From: a virus
Reading direction: 5' to 3' (one strand)
UHGV virus genome: UHGV-0119409
Length of the DNA: 10,192 nucleotides
Both the position numbers and the translations under genes were made by a program. Below the pieces are notes generated by a model. That model had not been told where the DNA came from. It searched no databases and was given only the letters and a program-made list of their open reading frames with translations. Shown here piece by piece: positions 1,338-8,883 of the stretch. Position 1 is the stretch's first letter; each line of letters opens with the position of its first letter.

Positions 1338-1414
1338 TTACCTCCGAGGTAATTAAAAACCACATAAGACATGAAATCAATAGAGTTTATAATATTTTGT
1401 TACCTAACAGGTAA
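1338..1414 (-). promoter_or_regulatory. Operator-flanked sigma70-like promoter reading leftward into the DUF1064 gene
   Basis: Minus strand reads: palindrome TTACCTGTTAGGTAA (1400-1414), 19 bp, TTGATT (-35; 1375-1380), 17 bp, TTTAAT (-10; 1352-1357), palindrome TTACCTCGGAGGTAA (1338-1352), then ATG. Same architecture as the pL-like promoter at 4399-4475. Confidence 0.6.
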
Positions 1415-2228: not shown

Positions 2229-3030
2229 CCCACACCCCTTCTATCCAGTCAGTGTTATTCCAGTCAAGCTCATCGCTTTTCCCGGCATTTTTTGATTTTC
2301 CCCTGATATGATTTACGTGCCTGGCGAATTTTTGTTCCCACTGAACCTGCGTGAACACTTTGCCCTCAGCCATCCAGTAATCCCGGAATGCAGCAAGTTC
2401 AGCAGGTGTAAATTCCGGTTCCGGCAGGGCCGTTCCCCACAGCGCAGCACGCCGCCGAAAATCTGGCGACGGTAGCCAGCCATCTGTCATCGGAAATTTC
2501 CCGATGGGTTCACTCAGGCCATCCAGAAATTCAGGTTCTGCCACCTGCAACGGCGTACTGTTCGCTTCACTGGTCGGAGCACCCTCGCGCACGTGCGCTA
2601 TGTGTGGGGTTTTATATATATCTTCCTCTTCCTCTTCCTCTGGTAACTCCTTTTGTAACGCTGTTGGCGTTACTTTTTGCGTTACTCGTTTTCGATGCTC
2701 TGCCACTCTTCTATTCGTAAGTGCACGTTTTTTCGATGATTCTCCATTATGTCGCTCAAAGTTTGGAAGAATTAGTTTGCCGTCATGATAAGCAAGCCAT
2801 CCGACGCTAATGAGGGCGTCAGCAAATCCTGTAATAAAAGCGAGTCTATCAAGCACTCCTTTTGTAACGCTGCCAGCGTTACCGTCTATTGTTTGCTGGT
2901 CAGCCCATGCCCATATACGAACCAGCTTTCCAAGAACAGCATCTGGATCAATACCCAGAATTTCTGCTATCTGAAAAATTTCAGGTTTATCAGGAGTGAT
3001 AACTTCAACCTTAATCCAGCTGCTTGCCAT
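2200..3030 (-). CDS. Replication initiator, O-like (276 aa from ATG at 3030; a GTG at 3048 is the alternative start)
   Basis: Sits directly upstream of and overlapping the P-like gene. ATG at 3030 has GAGGGG 6-7 nt upstream. The protein has an N-terminal domain, an acidic EEEEEED linker and a C-terminal domain, and the iteron-like DNA repeats sit in the linker-coding region as in lambda O. Confidence 0.65.
   Translation of the reverse strand: MASSWIKVEVITPDKPEIFQIAEILGIDPDAVLGKLVRIWAWADQQTIDGNAGSVTKGVLDRLAFITGFADALISVGWLAYHDGKLILPNFERHNGESSKKRALTNRRVAEHRKRVTQKVTPTALQKELPEEEEEEDIYKTPHIAHVREGAPTSEANSTPLQVAEPEFLDGLSEPIGKFPMTDGWLPSPDFRRRAALWGTALPEPEFTPAELAAFRDYWMAEGKVFTQVQWEQKFARHVNHIRGKSKNAGKSDELDWNNTDWIEGVWDEINSRTSQ
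2611..2685. other. Candidate origin of replication: AT-rich tract, (TCTTCC)3 and dyad half-sites at ~12-bp spacing
   Basis: ttatatata (2612-2620), then (tcttcc)x3 (2621-2638), then half-sites gtaacgc at 2655-2661 and gcgttac at 2667-2673 and 2679-2685 (12-bp spacing; partial gtaac at 2644). The 19-bp dyad gtaacgctgttggcgttac lies at 2655-2673. All inside the linker-coding part of the O-like gene. Confidence 0.5.
2857..2882. repeat. Second copy of the 17-bp repeat ctccttttgtaacgctg plus a 19-bp perfect dyad
   Basis: Exact 17-bp repeat of 2647-2663 followed by gtaacgctgccagcgttac (9-bp arms). It is read in a different codon phase from copy 1, so the conservation is at the DNA level. Confidence 0.5.
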
Positions 3031-3223
3031 AGGTTTCCCCTCTTGCACTCTTTAGTGCACAAGCAAATTCATTACGATGGCGGTTGGCGCTATTCATTGC
3101 ACATTCAACACATGTTCCGTTCAGAACATACCTTTCAGAGAGATGGCCGTGACGGCACCGCTTTCCTGTGAAATAGCGATTTAACCCGGCTTTTGCGGCC
3201 TCCATTCTGGTTACTATCTTCAA
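3011..3223 (-). CDS. Small Cys/His-containing protein, possible zinc-binding regulator (70 aa; TTG start at 3223 or ATG at 3205)
   Basis: ORF between the cro-like and O-like genes in operon orientation. Motif ...KRCRHGH...NGTCVEC... suggests a metal-binding knuckle. Start codon uncertain. Overlaps the O-like gene start by about 20 nt. Confidence 0.45.
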   Translation of the reverse strand: MKIVTRMEAAKAGLNRYFTGKRCRHGHLSERYVLNGTCVECAMNSANRHRNEFACALKSARGETYGKQLD

Positions 3224-3326
3224 TTTTTCCGCCCCTTTTTGTTATTGATATTGGCTATTTTGCACAATTGGAAAATTTGATCAACCAGATTTGGTTTTTT
3301 ATTACCTTTGAGGTACGAATAGATAT

Positions 3327-3371: not shown

Positions 3372-3602
3372 TCATGAGTAGAAGAAGTATGCCAGTTCTG
3401 CTTTTGAGCGCAGCCATTGTCTTGTTTTACAGGCTTTAAAAAGCCCATTCATCAATACCTTACCTGGCATTTTGCGCTTGCCTGTTAAGTGAGTCTGGAT
3501 ATAGTGACTCGTCGTTCCGGCTTCCTGTGCGAAGGCTTCACGCTCATCCGGAGTAAGTGCAAGCCAGTGCTTTTTGAAATCGAAATGTCCGTTATCGCTC
3601 AT
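3372..3602 (-). CDS. Cro-like HTH DNA-binding regulator (76 aa)
   Basis: First gene of the leftward operon, divergent from the repressor. Segment ...FAQEAGTTSHYIQTHLTGKRK... has helix-turn-helix character resembling Cro/CII-type phage regulators. Weak SD. Confidence 0.55.
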   Translation of the reverse strand: MSDNGHFDFKKHWLALTPDEREAFAQEAGTTSHYIQTHLTGKRKMPGKVLMNGLFKACKTRQWLRSKAELAYFFYS

Positions 3603-3638
3603 AGCTATTGCCTGATATTTATTTCAGATAATAAATAT

Positions 3639-3701
3639 TCACCCATAAGGTAACAAAAATCAAGGATAGTTACCTATGAGGTGCATTTACCTGTTGGGTA
3701 A
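3639..3701. promoter_or_regulatory. Divergent immunity control region with a tripartite operator (OR-like)
   Basis: Perfect palindrome ttacctgttgggtaa (3687-3701), and degenerate copies ttacctatgaggtgc (3670-3684) and tcacccataaggtaa (3639-3653), between the divergent cro-like and repressor genes. Exact -35/-10 elements not resolved. Confidence 0.6.
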
Positions 3702-3756: not shown

Positions 3757-4341
3757 ATGAAAAGTATCCAGGACGTCCGCAGGCAAAATCTCAACGACTT
3801 GATCGACCGTGAATTCAATGGTGTTCAGACGCGGATGGCAGAAAAACTTGGAACTCAGGCAAATCTGGTAAACCGCTGGGCTCTTGGCAAGAAGGTTATC
3901 GGCGACCAGGTTGCGCGAAAAATTGAAGCTGCCGCCAATAAACCACGTAACTGGCTTGATATCGATCGCTCGCTTTCTCAGGAAGGTTTTCAGCCTGTCG
4001 GCCCGAGCGATATAGGTCAGCTGGCGGCTCACAACCTGGAACGCTGGATGAGCGAAAGCCGCGACCTTTCAACACAGGGAAAACTTCACCGCGCATCCGG
4101 CGTCGCCCAGGTGACAATCAGCCGCCTGTTAAACAATGAGGTCAGCGTTTCCATTTCCACCCTGGAGAATGTTGCATCCGCATTCGGGCGTCACGGATAT
4201 GAACTACTGATTCACCCGCACGACCCTGCGACTATCAACTATGACCGCTCACGCTACGCATTGTTACCCGAAACCGAGAAAGCAAAGATCGAAAGTTACA
4301 TTGAATTTGTCATCAACCAGAACGAAAAAAGCAAACAATAA
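3757..4341 (+). CDS. Prophage repressor, CI-like by position, without a recognisable LexA/S24 autocleavage domain (194 aa)
   Basis: Divergent from the cro-like gene and followed by a terminator. Two HTH-like segments (...QTRMAEKLGTQANLVNRW... and ...ASGVAQVTISRLLNN...). No Ala-Gly cleavage site or Ser...Lys dyad pattern seen. Confidence 0.6.
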   Translation: MKSIQDVRRQNLNDLIDREFNGVQTRMAEKLGTQANLVNRWALGKKVIGDQVARKIEAAANKPRNWLDIDRSLSQEGFQPVGPSDIGQLAAHNLERWMSESRDLSTQGKLHRASGVAQVTISRLLNNEVSVSISTLENVASAFGRHGYELLIHPHDPATINYDRSRYALLPETEKAKIESYIEFVINQNEKSKQ

Positions 4342-4362
4342 AACTATATTTTTCAGTAAGTA

Positions 4363-4386
4363 AGCCGCCTCATGGCGGCTTTTTTA
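4363..4386 (+). terminator. Rho-independent terminator after the repressor gene
   Basis: agccgcc-tcat-ggcggct hairpin (4363-4380) followed by tttttt (4381-4386). Confidence 0.75.
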
Positions 4387-4398
4387 TTGCCAGATAGA

Positions 4399-4475
4399 TT
4401 ACCTTACGGGTAATTTTTTTAACTCATATCTATTGACACCAAACCAAATAAGCATAATTATTACCTCAACGGTAA
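4399..4475 (+). promoter_or_regulatory. pL-like early promoter flanked by two operator palindromes
   Basis: ttaccttacgggtaa (4399-4413), 19 bp, TTGACA (4433-4438), 16-17 bp, taatta (4455-4460), ttacctcaacggtaa (4461-4475), then GAGG and ATG at 4495. Confidence 0.7.
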
Positions 4476-4494: not shown

Positions 4495-4647
4495 ATGCAG
4501 TGGAAAATCATCAACGGTTGGTACTGCGTTACTGCATGCGGATTCATGAGCTGGAAGTTCCGCACCTTACAGGAAGGCATTAAGTGGGCTTTCGTCAGCA
4601 AAGAAGCTCGCGATGTAGCCAACGATAACGAGATATGGGAGGGCTGA
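4495..4647 (+). CDS. Small Trp-rich protein (50 aa), first gene of the rightward early operon
   Basis: ATG at 4495 with GAGG 9 nt upstream. Translation MQWKIINGWYCVTACGFMSWKFRTLQEGIKWAFVSKEARDVANDNEIWEG. Stop TGA at 4645-4647 is 2 nt from the next start. Not in the supplied ORF track (below its length cutoff). Confidence 0.4.
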   Translation: MQWKIINGWYCVTACGFMSWKFRTLQEGIKWAFVSKEARDVANDNEIWEG

Positions 4648-4649
4648 TA

Positions 4650-4949
4650 ATGAACGTTAATCAGCAGAAAAATCTTCAAAAAATCATGCTGGCATTCGAC
4701 AAGGACTACCGCCTGTCAGAACAGCTATATGACCGACAAGTTGAACTGATTGAGAGCATCCGACTTCATCAACTGTCCTCAACTTTCGACGTTGTAACAG
4801 GCAAAGGCGTTCGTCAGGAAGTGCTGGAGGCTGCTAAAGACAGCCCTGAGTTCGAAGAACTGATAGATTCCTACCGGCGCGAGGCAATGGCAATTATCGC
4901 CCGCTGGGATCTGGCGGATCGGATTGATGGGCAGAGGGAAGCGGCATGA
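4650..4949 (+). CDS. Hypothetical protein (99 aa) immediately upstream of the exo/RecT pair
   Basis: ATG at 4650 with GGGAGGG 6 nt upstream (preferred over the in-frame ATG at 4635). Stop overlaps the next gene's start (ATGATG). Confidence 0.6.
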   Translation: MNVNQQKNLQKIMLAFDKDYRLSEQLYDRQVELIESIRLHQLSSTFDVVTGKGVRQEVLEAAKDSPEFEELIDSYRREAMAIIARWDLADRIDGQREAA

Positions 4950-5845
4950 TGCAGAACGCTGGAATCATGGATAGAACAAAATACATCGGAGGAAGCGATG
5001 TTGCAGGGATTCTTGGAATTAGCCCATGGCGCACCCCGCTTGAGGTTTATCTGGATAAGGTCCAGCCACGTGTCAAACCAGTAGACCCAAGCAAGCAGAA
5101 AGTTTTCACGCGTGGCCAGCGTATGGAGCCATACGTAATAGACCTGCTTTCTGAGGAAACAGGGATGGAAATCGTTCATCGCGGAAACCGCTATATCCAC
5201 CGTGATTACGATTTTATTGCAGCTGAGATCGATGCAGAAGCAGCGTCAGGCGAGAACATTGAGATCAAAACAGTTAGTCCGTTCAAAGCCAAAGAATGGG
5301 GAGAAATCCAGACAGATGCAATTCCTGTGCATTACACGGCCCAGGCCATGCACGGGTTGATGGTTACAAACAAACAGGTATGCGTTTTCGGTGTGCTTAT
5401 CGGTGGCGACGACTTCCGAATCTATCGGGTTGAGCGTGATGAAGAAACTATCCAGGCGATCTTAGAAAAAGAAATCGCTTTCTGGGACCGAGTGAAAAAT
5501 CTTAACCCGCCGGAAGCTACCAGCGTAAGCGATGTATCGCTGATGTTTGAGAAAGATGCCGGGACAAGTATCGAGGCTGACGGAAAGGCACTCGCACTAT
5601 TCAACGATCTACGAGACATGAAGTCACGCAGAAAATCACTGGAAGAAGAAATAGCTATATCAGAAGAGAAGCTGAAGATGTACATGCAAGAGCACTCAGT
5701 CCTGACCCTGGACGGAAAGCCGCTCTGCACATGGAAATCTCAGATCAGCAACAGATTCGACCAGAAGCTATTCCAGTCAGTACACCCTGAGTTATTCGAA
5801 AAATTCAAAACAACAACGACACAACGCGTCTTCAGAATGAAGTAA
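4946..5845 (+). CDS. YqaJ-like recombination exonuclease (PD-(D/E)XK) with a C-terminal extension of about 100 aa (299 aa)
   Basis: N-terminal ...IGGSDVAGILGISPWRTPLEVY..., then ...QRMEPYV..., ...DAEAASGENIEIKT..., ...YTAQAMHG... fit the YqaJ/lambda-Exo-type nuclease motif order. Immediately upstream of RecT. Confidence 0.75.
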   Translation: MMQNAGIMDRTKYIGGSDVAGILGISPWRTPLEVYLDKVQPRVKPVDPSKQKVFTRGQRMEPYVIDLLSEETGMEIVHRGNRYIHRDYDFIAAEIDAEAASGENIEIKTVSPFKAKEWGEIQTDAIPVHYTAQAMHGLMVTNKQVCVFGVLIGGDDFRIYRVERDEETIQAILEKEIAFWDRVKNLNPPEATSVSDVSLMFEKDAGTSIEADGKALALFNDLRDMKSRRKSLEEEIAISEEKLKMYMQEHSVLTLDGKPLCTWKSQISNRFDQKLFQSVHPELFEKFKTTTTQRVFRMK

Positions 5846-5854
5846 GGAGAAAAA

Positions 5855-6877
5855 ATGTCTATCAATGCACTTAAGGCAGCGGCTACCGGTAACCAAGTTG
5901 CACATCATAATGAGAAACCAACAACTCTGGCCGGACTTCTGGCAGACCCAAAAATTAAAGCTCAGATGGCTTTGGCACTTCCAAAGCACATGACAGCAGA
6001 CCGTCTGGCGCGCATAGCAACCACAGAGATCCGAAAGGTTCCAAAACTTGCATCATGCGACCAAGCCAGCTTCCTGGGGGCAATTATGCAATGTGCCCAA
6101 TTGGGTCTTGAACCAGGAGGAGCTCTTGGACACGCTTACCTGATACCGTTCGACAAACGCCAGAAAGTAAATGGAAGATGGGAAACCGTATCTACAGAAG
6201 CACAGCTGATTATCGGCTATCGCGGAATGATTGACCTTGCCCGCCGCTCTGGGCAGATCCTGAGTATCTCGGCTCGTACCGTACATACAAACGACAAATT
6301 CAGCTACTCATACGGCCTGGAAGAAACGCTCGAGCATTTACCTTGCGAAACAGGTGACCGCGGAGAATTAACGCACGTTTACGCCGTTGCACGACTGAAA
6401 GATGGCGGAGTCCAATTTGAAGTTATGAGCCGGGCAGACATTGAGAAAGTTCGTGCACTGAGCAAAGCCGGTAGCAGTGGCCCATGGGTTGATCACTTCG
6501 ATGAGATGGCTAAAAAAACAGTAATTCGCCGACTATTCAAATATCTTCCTGTTTCTATTGAAATGCAGAAGGCTGTTGTTATGGATGAGCGCGCTGAAGC
6601 TGGACTTAGCCAAGATAACGCAGCTGTTATCACTGGTGAATATTCCGTAGTTGACGATGAGCGTCAACACCTGTCGCCAATTTCAGATTCAGAACGAGAA
6701 GAAGCTCGAGAATATATCATCGCGATACTTAATAGCCTGGATCCATCTGCTGAAGATGCAAAAACGATGTTCAAGCGCGCTGAAAATGAGATTAACACCA
6801 TGGCTGAAAAGCTCGGTGATGAATATCACCAAAAATTCATGATGACGCTTAACGATATGCGTCCAGAATTCGAGTAA
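5855..6877 (+). CDS. recT: RecT-family single-strand annealing recombinase (340 aa)
   Basis: AAGGAG 6 nt upstream of ATG at 5855. Sequence character (...GHAYLIPF..., ...IIGYRGMIDLARRSG...) and pairing with a YqaJ-type exonuclease match RecT/Redbeta-type SSAPs as I recall them. Confidence 0.8.
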   Translation: MSINALKAAATGNQVAHHNEKPTTLAGLLADPKIKAQMALALPKHMTADRLARIATTEIRKVPKLASCDQASFLGAIMQCAQLGLEPGGALGHAYLIPFDKRQKVNGRWETVSTEAQLIIGYRGMIDLARRSGQILSISARTVHTNDKFSYSYGLEETLEHLPCETGDRGELTHVYAVARLKDGGVQFEVMSRADIEKVRALSKAGSSGPWVDHFDEMAKKTVIRRLFKYLPVSIEMQKAVVMDERAEAGLSQDNAAVITGEYSVVDDERQHLSPISDSEREEAREYIIAILNSLDPSAEDAKTMFKRAENEINTMAEKLGDEYHQKFMMTLNDMRPEFE

Positions 6878-7584: not shown

Positions 7585-8227
7585 GAAATACACACTAATC
7601 TATGCAGATCCACCCTGGGTATACCGGGACAAAGCCGCAGATGGTAATCGCGGTGCCGGTTTTAAATATCCGGTTATGAGTGTGCTGGATATCTGCCGCC
7701 TTCCTGTGTGGGATTTGGCCGATGAAAACTGTCTGTTGGCCATGTGGTGGGTGCCAACACAACCACTCGAAGCACTAAAAGTTGTTGAAGCCTGGGGATT
7801 CCGTCTGATGACGATGAAGGGCTTCACGTGGATAAAATGTGGTAGTCGACAACCAGATAAACTGGTTATGGGTATGGGACACATGACTCGCGCCAATAGT
7901 GAAGATTGCCTGTTTGCAGTAAAGGGAAAACTACCTCCACGCATTAATGCAGGGATCGTTCAGTCATTTACCGCACCGCGGCTTGAGCATTCAAGAAAAC
8001 CAGATGTCGTTCGTGAAAAACTTGTGCAATTGTTAGGCGATGTTTCTCGCATTGAACTGTTCGCCCGCCAGACGTCTCATGGCTTCGATGTTTGGGGTAA
8101 TCAGTGCGAAGACCCGGCAGTGCAACTACACCCTGGATACGCGTTGGATATTGGCGGATTAACAAATGCATTCAGCAATGCTCCGGTGTCACCAATAGAC
8201 AACCAGGGGCGGGAGCGTGCAGCATGA
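7577..8227 (+). CDS. MT-A70-family DNA N6-adenine methyltransferase, orphan (216 aa)
   Basis: N-terminal ...[10 protein letters not shown]... with the DPPW catalytic motif, and overall size typical of phage MT-A70-like methylases. No adjacent restriction endonuclease candidate. Confidence 0.75.
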
Positions 8228-8883
8228 ACCTATATCAACGCATCAATGGCGCTGACTGGTGCAATATCTTCGTCGTCGGCGATCTGCATGGGTGCTACAC
8301 GCTGCTGATGAACGAACTCGACAAAGTTTCATTCGACCCGGCGCGCGATTTACTTATTTCCGTTGGTGACCTTGTTGACCGCGGCGCTGAAAACGTCGAA
8401 TGCCTGGATTTGATTACTATGCCGTGGTTCCGAGCTGTTCGTGGCAACCATGAGCAGATGATGCTGGATGCACTGGTCAACGGCGGAAGTTTCGGACATT
8501 GGATGTCAAACGGCGGTGGATGGTGGCACCAACTTGATTCTGAGCAGGATGTGCAACTCAAATACCTTCTGCCAAAGATTACCAACCTCCCGATGATTAT
8601 CGAACTGGTTACCGGCAATAAGAAGGTCGTCATCTGTCACGCAGACTACCCGCACAACGAATACGCATTCGATAAGCCAGTACCAGAAGAAATGGTGATA
8701 TGGAATCGTGAGCGGGTTAGCGACGCGCAGGACGGTATTGTCTCGGAGATAACCGGTGCCGATTTGTTCATCTTCGGTCATACGCCAGCACATCACCCAC
8801 TGGTGTATGCAAACCAGATGTACATCGACACCGGCGCAGTGTTCTGCGGAAATCTGACGCTTACCAAAGTCCAGGAAGGATAG
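8224..8883 (+). CDS. Ser/Thr protein phosphatase, lambda-PPase / PrpA-like metallophosphoesterase (219 aa)
   Basis: Motifs GDLHG, GDLVDRG and GNHE in canonical order. ATG at 8224 overlaps the methyltransferase stop (ATGA). The track ORF 8104-8883 includes an in-frame non-coding extension. Confidence 0.85.

What the first reader, a model, noticed from the sequence alone, without database searches (positions are those of the whole stretch)
3757..4341. Repressor appears to lack a LexA-like autocleavage domain
The 194-aa repressor shows two HTH-like segments but no recognisable Ala-Gly cleavage site or Ser...Lys catalytic dyad of S24 peptidase-type CI repressors. Induction would then have to run through a trans-acting antirepressor, as described for Gifsy-type prophages, rather than RecA-stimulated autocleavage. 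No antirepressor candidate is visible in this window.
Basis: inference. Interest (0 to 1): 0.5.

Follow-up and report, generated by a model that had tools for sequence, protein, structure and literature searches.

The report
Non-cleavable phage repressor, antirepressor-controlled
This gene is the lysogeny repressor of a phiV10/epsilon15-like E. coli prophage; it has no self-cleaving domain and belongs to an already characterised family that a small SOS-controlled antirepressor, encoded elsewhere in the prophage, switches off.

Summary
ORF 3757-4341 (+) encodes a 194-aa protein with two HTH-like helical modules. It has no Peptidase_S24 domain and no Ala-Gly or Cys-Gly site; lambda CI, run as a control, scores S24 at E 6.8e-29. 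The protein is a full-length homologue (E 3.5e-42, 43% identity) of Rep of Salmonella phage SPC32H, whose structure is solved alone and bound to its antirepressor Ant (PDB 5D4Z, 5D50). It is 99.5% identical to the repressors of phiV10 and vB_EcoP_ZX5. In ZX5, overexpressing the repressor shut off lytic transcription. The window is 99.6% identical to a guaA-integrated prophage of E. coli APEC O1. That prophage encodes an identical repressor and, 27 kb away and outside the window, an 85-aa Ant (87% identical to SPC32H Ant) behind a perfect LexA box. Rep and Ant co-occur in 35 of 36 phage records. The family differs from the Gifsy repressors (136 aa, single domain), though the logic is the same. 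The window holds no antirepressor gene or LexA box. Palindromic TTACC-N5-GGTAA operators flank the gene, as in SPC32H. Interest is low: this is correct but already described.

The parts
3757..4341 (+). rep: prophage lysogeny repressor, 194 aa, SPC32H/epsilon15-type Rep
   Evidence: ORF. phmmer vs PDB: 5d50_A 'Repressor', E 3.5e-42, residues 1-190. 99.5% identical to the phiV10 and ZX5 repressors and 100% to the APEC O1 prophage protein. No S24 domain.
3757..3966 (+). N-terminal DNA-binding domain (aa 1-70), Cro/YdaS-like HTH
   Evidence: Pfam YdaS_toxin/DUF739-like HTH at 20-61. Model helices 4-59. 54% identical to the SPC32H Rep DBD, with NLVNRW conserved. DBD role taken from SPC32H.
4021..4221 (+). 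Middle HTH_3-like module (aa 89-155), equivalent to the dimerisation domain (MDD) of SPC32H Rep
   Evidence: Pfam HTH_3 at 106-147, E 1.2e-09. Homology to 5d4z (Rep 92-198), E 3.6e-20. 33% identity. MDD role.
4222..4338 (+). C-terminal module (aa 156-194), equivalent to the tetramerisation / Ant-binding domain (CAD) of SPC32H Rep
   Evidence: 46% identical to SPC32H. Y162, L170 and F184 are invariant across 22 family members. Low pLDDT at 157-167 followed by a long helix 172-193 in the monomer model. CAD role.
3639..3701 (.). OR-like operator cluster: three TTACC-N5-GGTAA sites (3639-3653, 3670-3684, 3687-3701) between rep and the divergent cro-like gene
   Evidence: Motif enrichment: 10 hits vs 2.9 expected, 0 of 200 shuffles. 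The sites align with three perfect or near-perfect sites in SPC32H.
3628..3656 (-). PR-like promoter (TTGTTA-17-TATTAT) overlapping operator 3639-3653, reading into the cro-like gene
   Evidence: Consensus scan. Function is inferred.
3372..3602 (-). Divergent 76-aa cro/cII-like regulator gene
   Evidence: phrog_35 'transcriptional repressor', E 5.6e-13. Same position as phiV10 p41 and SPC32H_042.
4362..4381 (+). Intrinsic terminator after rep
   Evidence: 8-bp GC-rich stem plus T run. Annotated as a terminator in phiV10.
4399..4475 (.). OL-like region: two perfect TTACC-N5-GGTAA sites (4399-4413, 4461-4475), 62 bp apart, bracketing a strong promoter (TTGACA-17-AATTAT, 4433-4461, +) for the recombination operon
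   Evidence: The same 62-bp pair occurs in phiV10 and SPC32H.
3302..3316 (.). Additional operator-like site (1 mismatch) downstream of the cro-like gene terminator
   Evidence: Conserved in the APEC O1 prophage and phiV10.
1338..1414 (.). Second pair of perfect operator-like sites (1338-1352, 1400-1414), again 62 bp apart, between the P-like gene and the DUF1064 gene
   Evidence: Conserved pair in phiV10 (35070/35132) and SPC32H (35972/36034).

Best explanation
The gene encodes the immunity repressor (Rep) of a phiV10/epsilon15-like (Uetakevirus) prophage of E. coli integrated next to guaA. By homology, Rep has three modules: an N-terminal HTH DNA-binding domain, a middle HTH-fold dimerisation domain and a C-terminal tetramerisation / Ant-binding domain. 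It has no protease domain. Rep most likely binds the TTACC-N5-GGTAA palindromes that overlap the divergent PR-like and PL-like promoters on either side of its gene, and so keeps the lytic genes off. RecA does not cleave it. Instead, DNA damage cleaves host LexA, which lifts repression of a small antirepressor gene (ant, 85 aa) about 27 kb away in the same prophage. Ant then binds the Rep C-terminal region and releases Rep from DNA. What is shown here: the absence of S24, full-length homology to SPC32H Rep, the shared operator layout, the presence of ant with a LexA box in the closest genome, and Rep-Ant co-occurrence. What is inferred from homologues: the physical Rep-Ant interaction, the tetramer and non-cleavage for this particular orthologue.
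For: No S24 domain, with a working positive control, and no AG/CG site. phmmer to 5d50_A gives E 3.5e-42 over residues 1-190, and to 5d4z E 3.6e-20. Foldseek's top hits are 'Rep-Ant complex from Salmonella-temperate phage'. The DNA is 97-98% identical to phiV10-like phages and 99.6% to the APEC O1 prophage, where Rep is 100% identical. phiV10 p24 and the APEC O1 85-aa gene match 5d50_E 'Anti-repressor protein' at E 3.8e-46. A perfect LexA box, CTGTATAAATATACAG, lies 21 bp upstream of the ant ATG, and the arrangement is the same in phiV10 and SPC32H. Rep and Ant co-occur in 35 of 36 phage records. They are found in 537 and 529 of 5426 complete E. coli genomes respectively. The operator motif is highly enriched and positionally conserved with SPC32H. 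From the literature: SPC32H Rep binds DNA as a tetramer and Ant disassembles it, and LexA-controlled Ant in Salmonella prophages is cited to Kim and Ryu 2013. Overexpressing the 99.5%-identical ZX5 repressor abolished free phage and cut holin and endolysin mRNA by more than 99.9%.
Against: The window itself contains neither ant nor a LexA box. Their presence in the window's own genome is therefore inferred from the nearest genome (99.6% identical) and from co-occurrence. Rep is only 43% identical to the crystallised protein: 46% in the Ant-binding module and 33% in the middle module. No Rep-Ant binding, non-cleavage or LexA dependence has been shown for the phiV10-type pair. In ZX5 the protein tested as the 'anti-repressor' was the BRO-N protein, not the small Ant. 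The two primary SPC32H papers could not be read here, so details come from citing papers and PDB titles.
Confidence: 0.88

Rival explanations
1. Induction runs mainly through the 231-aa BRO-N protein encoded next to ant, not the small Ant. This protein carries an Ant-like C-terminal domain.
For: The APEC O1 prophage encodes a BRO-N protein whose residues ~148-229 match the Ant family (phrog_450, E 5.5e-36; tblastn 40% identity, E 9e-14). It is 99% identical to ZX5 ORF4. Overexpressing ORF4 lowered the prophage titre from 1e9 to 1e6 and repressor mRNA by 75%.
Against: No perfect LexA box precedes it: the only perfect box near these genes is the one upstream of ant, and a terminator-like hairpin separates the two genes. 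In phiV10 the Ant-like C-terminal part is split over two reading frames, and SPC32H has no second Ant-like match, so the protein is dispensable in relatives. Overexpression is weak evidence. The two routes are not mutually exclusive.
Confidence: 0.2
2. Rep is inactivated by RecA-stimulated self-cleavage or another protease, through a cryptic module that profile searches do not recognise.
For: None found. It is only the default lambda paradigm.
Against: There is no S24 signal in this protein, in 22 relatives or in 86 database homologues. There is no AG/CG site. The model is all-helical and its best structural matches are the SPC32H Rep structures. A review citing Lemire 2011 and Kim and Ryu 2013 says that in several Salmonella prophages induction runs through a LexA-controlled antirepressor rather than repressor cleavage.
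Confidence: 0.02
3. It is a Gifsy-type (GfoR/GtgR, DicA/RacR-like) repressor, inactivated by a GfoA/GftA-type antirepressor from a dinI-ant-irsA operon, possibly supplied in trans by another prophage.
For: The overall logic is the same: a non-cleavable repressor plus a LexA-controlled antirepressor outside the immunity region. Cross-talk between prophages is documented for Gifsy phages.
Against: The Gifsy-1 (LT2) repressor is 136 aa with a single HTH_3. It shares only a 40-residue, 25%-identity local match with this protein and was not hit by tblastn at E<=1e-5. Gifsy repressors are described as ~150 aa, resembling only the lambda CI N-terminal domain. The cognate Ant here belongs to a different family (5d50_E, phrog_450), and no dinI homologue is annotated in the APEC O1 prophage.
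Confidence: 0.03

Closest known systems
Rep/Ant lytic switch of Salmonella phage SPC32H (Uetakevirus; PDB 5D4Z, 5D50; Kim and Ryu 2013 J Virol; Kim et al. 2016 PNAS)
   Same: Full-length homology (E 3.5e-42) and the same length class (194 vs 198 aa). Same Pfam signature, same position in the genome, and the same three-site operator cluster with TTACC/GGTAA half-sites. The cognate Ant is 87% identical, behind a LexA box and divergent from the tailspike gene.
   Different: Only 43% identical overall (DBD 54%, middle 33%, C-terminal 46%). The host is E. coli. The Rep-Ant interaction and non-cleavage have not been tested for this orthologue. The E. coli relatives carry an extra BRO-N protein with an Ant-like domain, which SPC32H lacks.
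Repressors of E. coli phages phiV10 (p40) and vB_EcoP_ZX5 (ORF21)
   Same: 99.5% identical protein, the same immunity region (97-98% DNA identity) and the same integration next to guaA as reported for ZX5 (the phiV10 site was not checked). The ZX5 repressor was shown by overexpression to block lytic gene transcription.
   Different: The surrounding modules are mosaic. This window has separate YqaJ-exonuclease and RecT genes and a NinI-like phosphatase, where phiV10 has a fused RecE/RecT and a DUF1382 gene. In the public phiV10 and ZX5 records the small Ant gene is labelled only 'hypothetical protein'.
Gifsy prophage repressors GfoR/GfhR/GtgR with antirepressors GfoA/GfhA/GftA (Lemire et al. 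2011)
   Same: A non-cleavable repressor is inactivated by binding a small antirepressor. The antirepressor gene lies outside the immunity region and is under direct LexA control.
   Different: A different protein family on both sides. The Gifsy repressors are 136-150 aa single-domain lambda-CI-NTD-like proteins that most likely interact as dimers. Their antirepressor sits in a dinI-ant-irsA operon. No significant sequence relationship exists beyond the generic HTH.
Lambda CI / LexA (S24 peptidase-type autocleavable repressors)
   Same: An N-terminal Cro/C1-type HTH domain, divergent promoters with multiple palindromic operators, and the same gene position and orientation relative to the recombination and replication operons.
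   Different: No S24 catalytic domain, no Ala-Gly site and no beta-rich C-terminal fold. The SOS signal enters through LexA control of a separate gene.

Membership tests
S24 peptidase-type autocleavable repressors (LexA, lambda CI, P22 C2) | C-terminal Peptidase_S24 (PF00717) domain | tested here: not met
   No hit at E<=1 in this protein, in 22 relatives or in 86 homologues' precomputed Pfam hits. The lambda CI control scores E 6.8e-29.
S24 peptidase-type autocleavable repressors (LexA, lambda CI, P22 C2) | Ala-Gly (or Cys-Gly) scissile bond in the inter-domain linker | tested here: not met
   No AG or CG dipeptide anywhere in the 194 aa.
S24 peptidase-type autocleavable repressors (LexA, lambda CI, P22 C2) | Beta-rich catalytic fold with a Ser-Lys dyad | tested here: not met
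   The AF2 model is all-helical. Among the 50 Foldseek PDB matches shown there is no LexA/CI C-terminal domain; the only LexA hit is an N-terminal HTH domain.
S24 peptidase-type autocleavable repressors (LexA, lambda CI, P22 C2) | RecA-stimulated self-cleavage in vivo or in vitro | not testable with these tools
   Needs a western blot after mitomycin C or UV in recA+ and recA- hosts.
SPC32H/epsilon15-type Rep (Rep-Ant switch of Uetakevirus phages) | Full-length sequence homology to SPC32H Rep | tested here: met
   phmmer to 5d50_A gives E 3.5e-42 over residues 1-190 of 194. tblastn gives 42.7% identity over 99% of the length.
SPC32H/epsilon15-type Rep (Rep-Ant switch of Uetakevirus phages) | Three-module architecture: N-terminal DBD, middle dimerisation domain, C-terminal tetramerisation / Ant-binding domain | tested here: met
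   The alignment covers all three modules. The model shows two helical bundles plus a C-terminal strand-and-helix region, which has low confidence in the monomer. Foldseek's top hits are 5d50 and 5d4z.
SPC32H/epsilon15-type Rep (Rep-Ant switch of Uetakevirus phages) | Cognate small Ant gene in the same phage | tested here: met
   Not in the window. Present in the 99.6%-identical APEC O1 prophage at L002 13357-13614. It matches 5d50_E at E 3.8e-46. Rep and Ant co-occur in 35 of 36 phage records.
SPC32H/epsilon15-type Rep (Rep-Ant switch of Uetakevirus phages) | LexA box at the ant promoter | tested here: met
   Perfect CTGT-N8-ACAG boxes lie directly upstream of ant in the APEC O1 prophage, phiV10 and SPC32H.
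SPC32H/epsilon15-type Rep (Rep-Ant switch of Uetakevirus phages) | Same immunity-region layout and operator type | tested here: met
   Gene order matches phiV10 and SPC32H. Three TTACC-N5-GGTAA sites align between the window and SPC32H. The motif is enriched in all.
SPC32H/epsilon15-type Rep (Rep-Ant switch of Uetakevirus phages) | Physical Rep-Ant complex that releases Rep from DNA; Rep tetramer | not testable with these tools
   Needs pull-down, SEC or EMSA with the phiV10-type proteins. No multimer prediction tool was available.
Gifsy-type repressors (GfoR/GtgR; DicA/RacR relatives) | Small (~136-150 aa) single-domain protein resembling the lambda CI N-terminal domain over nearly its whole length | tested here: not met
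   This protein is 194 aa with three modules. The Gifsy-1 repressor is 136 aa with one HTH_3.
Gifsy-type repressors (GfoR/GtgR; DicA/RacR relatives) | Sequence homology to GtgR/GogR | tested here: not met
   BLASTP finds only 10/40 identities within the HTH (pairwise E 3e-4). Gifsy-1 is in the collection but tblastn did not hit it at E<=1e-5.
Gifsy-type repressors (GfoR/GtgR; DicA/RacR relatives) | Antirepressor encoded in a LexA-controlled dinI-ant-irsA operon | tested here: not met
   In the APEC O1 prophage ant stands alone behind its LexA box and a terminator-like hairpin follows it. No dinI homologue is annotated in the prophage.

The most novel reading that the evidence does not exclude
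Rep may be a genome-wide regulator rather than a local one. Its TTACC-N5-GGTAA operator recurs at about nine intergenic places around the whole phage, conserved across phiV10, SPC32H and the APEC O1 prophage. One site lies about 40 bp upstream of the LexA box of ant, one upstream of int, and there are two pairs with an exact 62-bp spacing. If Rep binds these, ant would sit under a double lock (LexA plus Rep). The 62-bp pairs would be natural targets for one tetramer bridging two operators. The highly conserved Ant (87% identical between E. coli and Salmonella phages, versus 43% for Rep) could also cross-induce related prophages.
Probability: 0.3. Interest if true: 0.35.

Novelty: already known. 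Interest (0 to 1): 0.12.

Why it matters
It matters mainly for annotation. About one in ten complete E. coli genomes (537 of 5426) carries this repressor, usually labelled only 'helix-turn-helix domain-containing protein'. Its partner Ant is labelled 'hypothetical protein'. Recognising the pair as the SPC32H-type switch predicts two things: these prophages are SOS-inducible through LexA rather than through repressor cleavage, and induction is in principle reversible. No new biology follows from the finding itself.

Tried and rejected
1. I looked for a LexA box inside the window. There are only four 1-mismatch matches to CTGT-N8-ACAG, which is at chance level.
2. I looked for an Ant-like sequence in the window by tblastn. 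The best E-value is 0.18, so nothing is there.
3. My first operator search used the wrong spacer (N7) and found nothing above chance. Corrected to N5, the motif is strongly enriched.
4. I tried to read the primary SPC32H papers (PMC3807360, PMC4983836) and the epsilon15 genome paper (PMC2698709). None is held, so mechanistic details come from citing papers and PDB entry titles.
5. I considered Gifsy-family membership and rejected it after a direct comparison with the Gifsy-1 repressor.
6. NCBIfam gave only sub-threshold hits for the repressor (RstR, HigA, TreR), all far below their cut-offs. They were not used.
7. No convincing sigma-70 promoter for rep itself was found by the consensus scan, so the PRM equivalent remains unidentified.

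Full report
**1. The observation**

The ORF exists exactly as described: 3757..4341 on the + strand, ATG start, 194 aa.
- Pfam finds HTH_3 with two matched stretches (best at residues 106-147) and a weak Cro/YdaS-like HTH at 21-61. No Peptidase_S24 appears even at E<=1.
- The same negative result holds for 22 diverse relatives scanned individually. It also holds for the precomputed Pfam hits of all 86 database homologues, which are nearly all about 190-200 aa plus a few shorter fragments.
- The test can detect the domain: lambda CI, run through the same scan, scores Peptidase_S24 at E 6.8e-29.
- The protein has no Ala-Gly or Cys-Gly dipeptide.
- An AlphaFold2 model built on a 22-sequence alignment (mean pLDDT 76) is all-helical. 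It has two helical bundles (4-59 and 83-151) and a long C-terminal helix.

**2. What the protein is**

- A sequence search of the PDB gives a full-length match to chain A of 5D50, 'Repressor' (E 3.5e-42, residues 1-190). It also matches 5D4Z, which covers residues 92-198 of the same protein (E 3.6e-20).
- Foldseek with the model returns the same entries first. They are titled 'Rep-Ant complex from Salmonella-temperate phage' and 'Repressor from Salmonella-temperate phage'.
- The source phage is SPC32H. Its annotated rep gene (KC911856, 33739-34335) is 42.7% identical to the window's protein over 99% of its length.
- At the DNA level the immunity region is 97-98% identical to phiV10, TL-2011b, O157 typing phages 9 and 10, and vB_EcoP_ZX5, all epsilon15-like podoviruses of the genus Uetakevirus. 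The protein is 99.5% identical to their repressors.
- The whole window is 99.6% identical to a roughly 39.5-kb prophage between yfgI and guaA in E. coli APEC O1. That prophage's repressor is 100% identical.

**3. Window context**

The gene order is that of a lambdoid immunity region.
- To the left, on the - strand: a 76-aa cro/cII-like gene (3372-3602), a 70-aa Cys/His-rich ORF, a DnaT/O-like initiator, a lambda-P-like loader, a DUF1064 gene and two unknowns.
- To the right, on the + strand: a terminator, two small conserved ORFs, a YqaJ exonuclease, RecT, an AlpA-type excisionase, a PerC-like activator, an MT-A70 methyltransferase and a NinI-like phosphatase. The integrase follows on the - strand.

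**4. How the repressor is inactivated**

Citing papers describe the SPC32H system. They say Rep binds DNA as a tetramer, and that the tetrameric antirepressor Ant binds two Rep dimers and disrupts the tetramer. They also give the domain map: an N-terminal DBD, a middle dimerisation domain and a C-terminal tetramerisation / Ant-binding domain. A review cites Kim and Ryu 2013 for LexA-controlled antirepressors in Salmonella prophages.

I checked whether the partner exists for this element.
- phiV10 gene p24 (85 aa, annotated hypothetical) matches the Ant chain 5d50_E at E 3.8e-46. A perfect LexA box, TACTGTGTATTTATACAGT, precedes it.
- The APEC O1 prophage has the same gene, matching phiV10 p24 at 83 of 83 aligned residues and 87% identical to SPC32H Ant. 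The box CTGTATAAATATACAG lies 21 bp upstream of its ATG.
- SPC32H has the same arrangement.
- In the prophage, ant lies 27.4 kb from rep, about 24 kb to the left of the window start.
- The window itself has no Ant-like sequence (best tblastn E 0.18) and no LexA box above chance.

**5. Co-occurrence of Rep and Ant**

- Among 50,697 phage records, 36 encode a full-length Rep homologue and 35 encode Ant.
- 35 of the 36 Rep records are also on the Ant list. The exception is a 138-kb composite record.
- In 5426 complete E. coli genomes the rep gene is found in 537 and the ant region in 529. Each also has three plasmid copies. These lists could not be cross-matched, so the agreement is only in the counts.

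**6. Operators**

The palindrome TTACC-N5-GGTAA is strongly enriched.
- The window has 10 hits with up to two mismatches against 2.9 expected, reached by 0 of 200 shuffles.
- With up to one mismatch, the APEC O1 locus has 15 hits against 0.8 expected, phiV10 has 14 against 0.65, and SPC32H has 18 against 0.5.
- Three sites (3639, 3670, 3687) lie between rep and the cro-like gene. They align with three sites in SPC32H. One overlaps a PR-like promoter.
- Two perfect sites (4399, 4461) bracket a strong PL-like promoter just after the rep terminator.
- The conserved NLVNRW segment of the DBD (54% identical overall) fits the shared half-site.

That Rep binds these sites is an inference. It was not tested here.

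**7. Direct experimental literature on this orthologue**

Phage vB_EcoP_ZX5 integrates at the 3' end of guaA.
- Overexpressing its repressor (ORF21, 99.5% identical to the window's) abolished free phage. It reduced holin and endolysin transcripts by 99.97% and 99.99%.
- The 'anti-repressor' tested there (ORF4) is the BRO-N protein. The small Ant homologue is left as 'hypothetical protein' in that record.
- The BRO-N protein carries an Ant-like C-terminal domain. It is therefore a plausible second antirepressor, and this is the main rival or complement to the small-Ant route.

**8. Comparison with the Gifsy systems**

The logic is the same: a non-cleavable repressor and a LexA-controlled antirepressor outside the immunity region. 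The family is different.
- The Gifsy-1 repressor is 136 aa with a single HTH_3. It shares only a 40-residue, 25%-identity local match with this protein.
- The Gifsy antirepressors lie in a dinI-ant-irsA operon. That arrangement is not seen here.

**9. Verdict**

However, this is a member of an already characterised repressor-antirepressor system in a well-known phage genus, so novelty and interest are low.

Three things remain untested for this orthologue: non-cleavage, Rep-Ant binding (the Ant-binding module is only 46% identical to the crystallised one), and the relative roles of Ant and the BRO-N protein.

The only mildly new angle is the dispersed, positionally conserved operator set, including a site next to ant and the 62-bp pairs. 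It may already be described in the epsilon15 and SPC32H papers, which I could not read.

Noticed in passing
window 1338-1352, 1400-1414, 3302-3316, 4399-4413, 4461-4475; L002 13266, 13646, 14698, 32372, 35523, 35541, 47437: The TTACC-N5-GGTAA palindrome is not confined to the immunity region. It recurs at about nine mostly intergenic places around the whole phage: next to ant, downstream of the BRO-N gene, at the 5' end of the small terminase gene, and upstream of int. Two pairs have an exact 62-bp spacing. Positions are conserved in phiV10 and SPC32H. I recall that the epsilon15 genome paper listed putative operators of this form, but I could not verify this.
   Followed up: partly
L002 13930-14625 (APEC O1 prophage; outside the window): A 231-aa BRO-N protein next to ant carries an Ant-like C-terminal domain (phrog_450 at residues 148-229, 40% identical to Ant). 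It is 99% identical to ZX5 ORF4, the protein tested as the 'anti-repressor' in that paper. In phiV10 the Ant-like part is split over two reading frames.
   Followed up: partly
L001 20543-20800; L005 2089-2346; L002 13357-13614: The SPC32H-type Ant gene, with its LexA box, is annotated only as 'hypothetical protein' in phiV10, ZX5, the APEC O1 RefSeq record and most related phage records. PHROGs also files it under 'unknown function' (phrog_450).
   Followed up: yes
window 8224-8883 (+): A NinI/PrpA-like serine/threonine phosphatase gene sits between the methyltransferase and the integrase, where phiV10 and ZX5 have a small DUF1382/hypothetical gene. It looks like a swapped cargo gene at the prophage end. 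The mechanical ORF list extends it to a GTG at 8104, but RefSeq starts it at the ATG at 8224.
   Followed up: no
window 4946-6877 (+): The recombination module is mosaic. The window has separate YqaJ-type exonuclease (299 aa) and RecT (340 aa) genes. phiV10 has a single 1761-bp gene annotated as a RecE/RecT fusion. ZX5 and SPC32H have shorter RecE-like and RecT genes.
   Followed up: no
window 3011-3223 (-): A 70-aa ORF with a CxH...CxxC pattern (phrog_1081, unknown function) lies between the cro-like gene and the replication initiator gene and overlaps the latter's start by about 38 bp. It is conserved in epsilon15-like phages.
   Followed up: no
L002 10042-13161 (APEC O1 prophage; outside the window): The closest prophage carries an endosialidase-type tailspike (expected to target the K1 capsule) on the epsilon15-like chassis, in place of the phiV10 O157-specific tail fibre and O-acetyltransferase.
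   Followed up: no
window 4495-4949 (+): The first two genes of the PL-like operon (50 aa, phrog_898; 104 aa, phrog_856) are conserved in all relatives but have no known function. They occupy the position where lambda has N and other early-left regulators.
   Followed up: no
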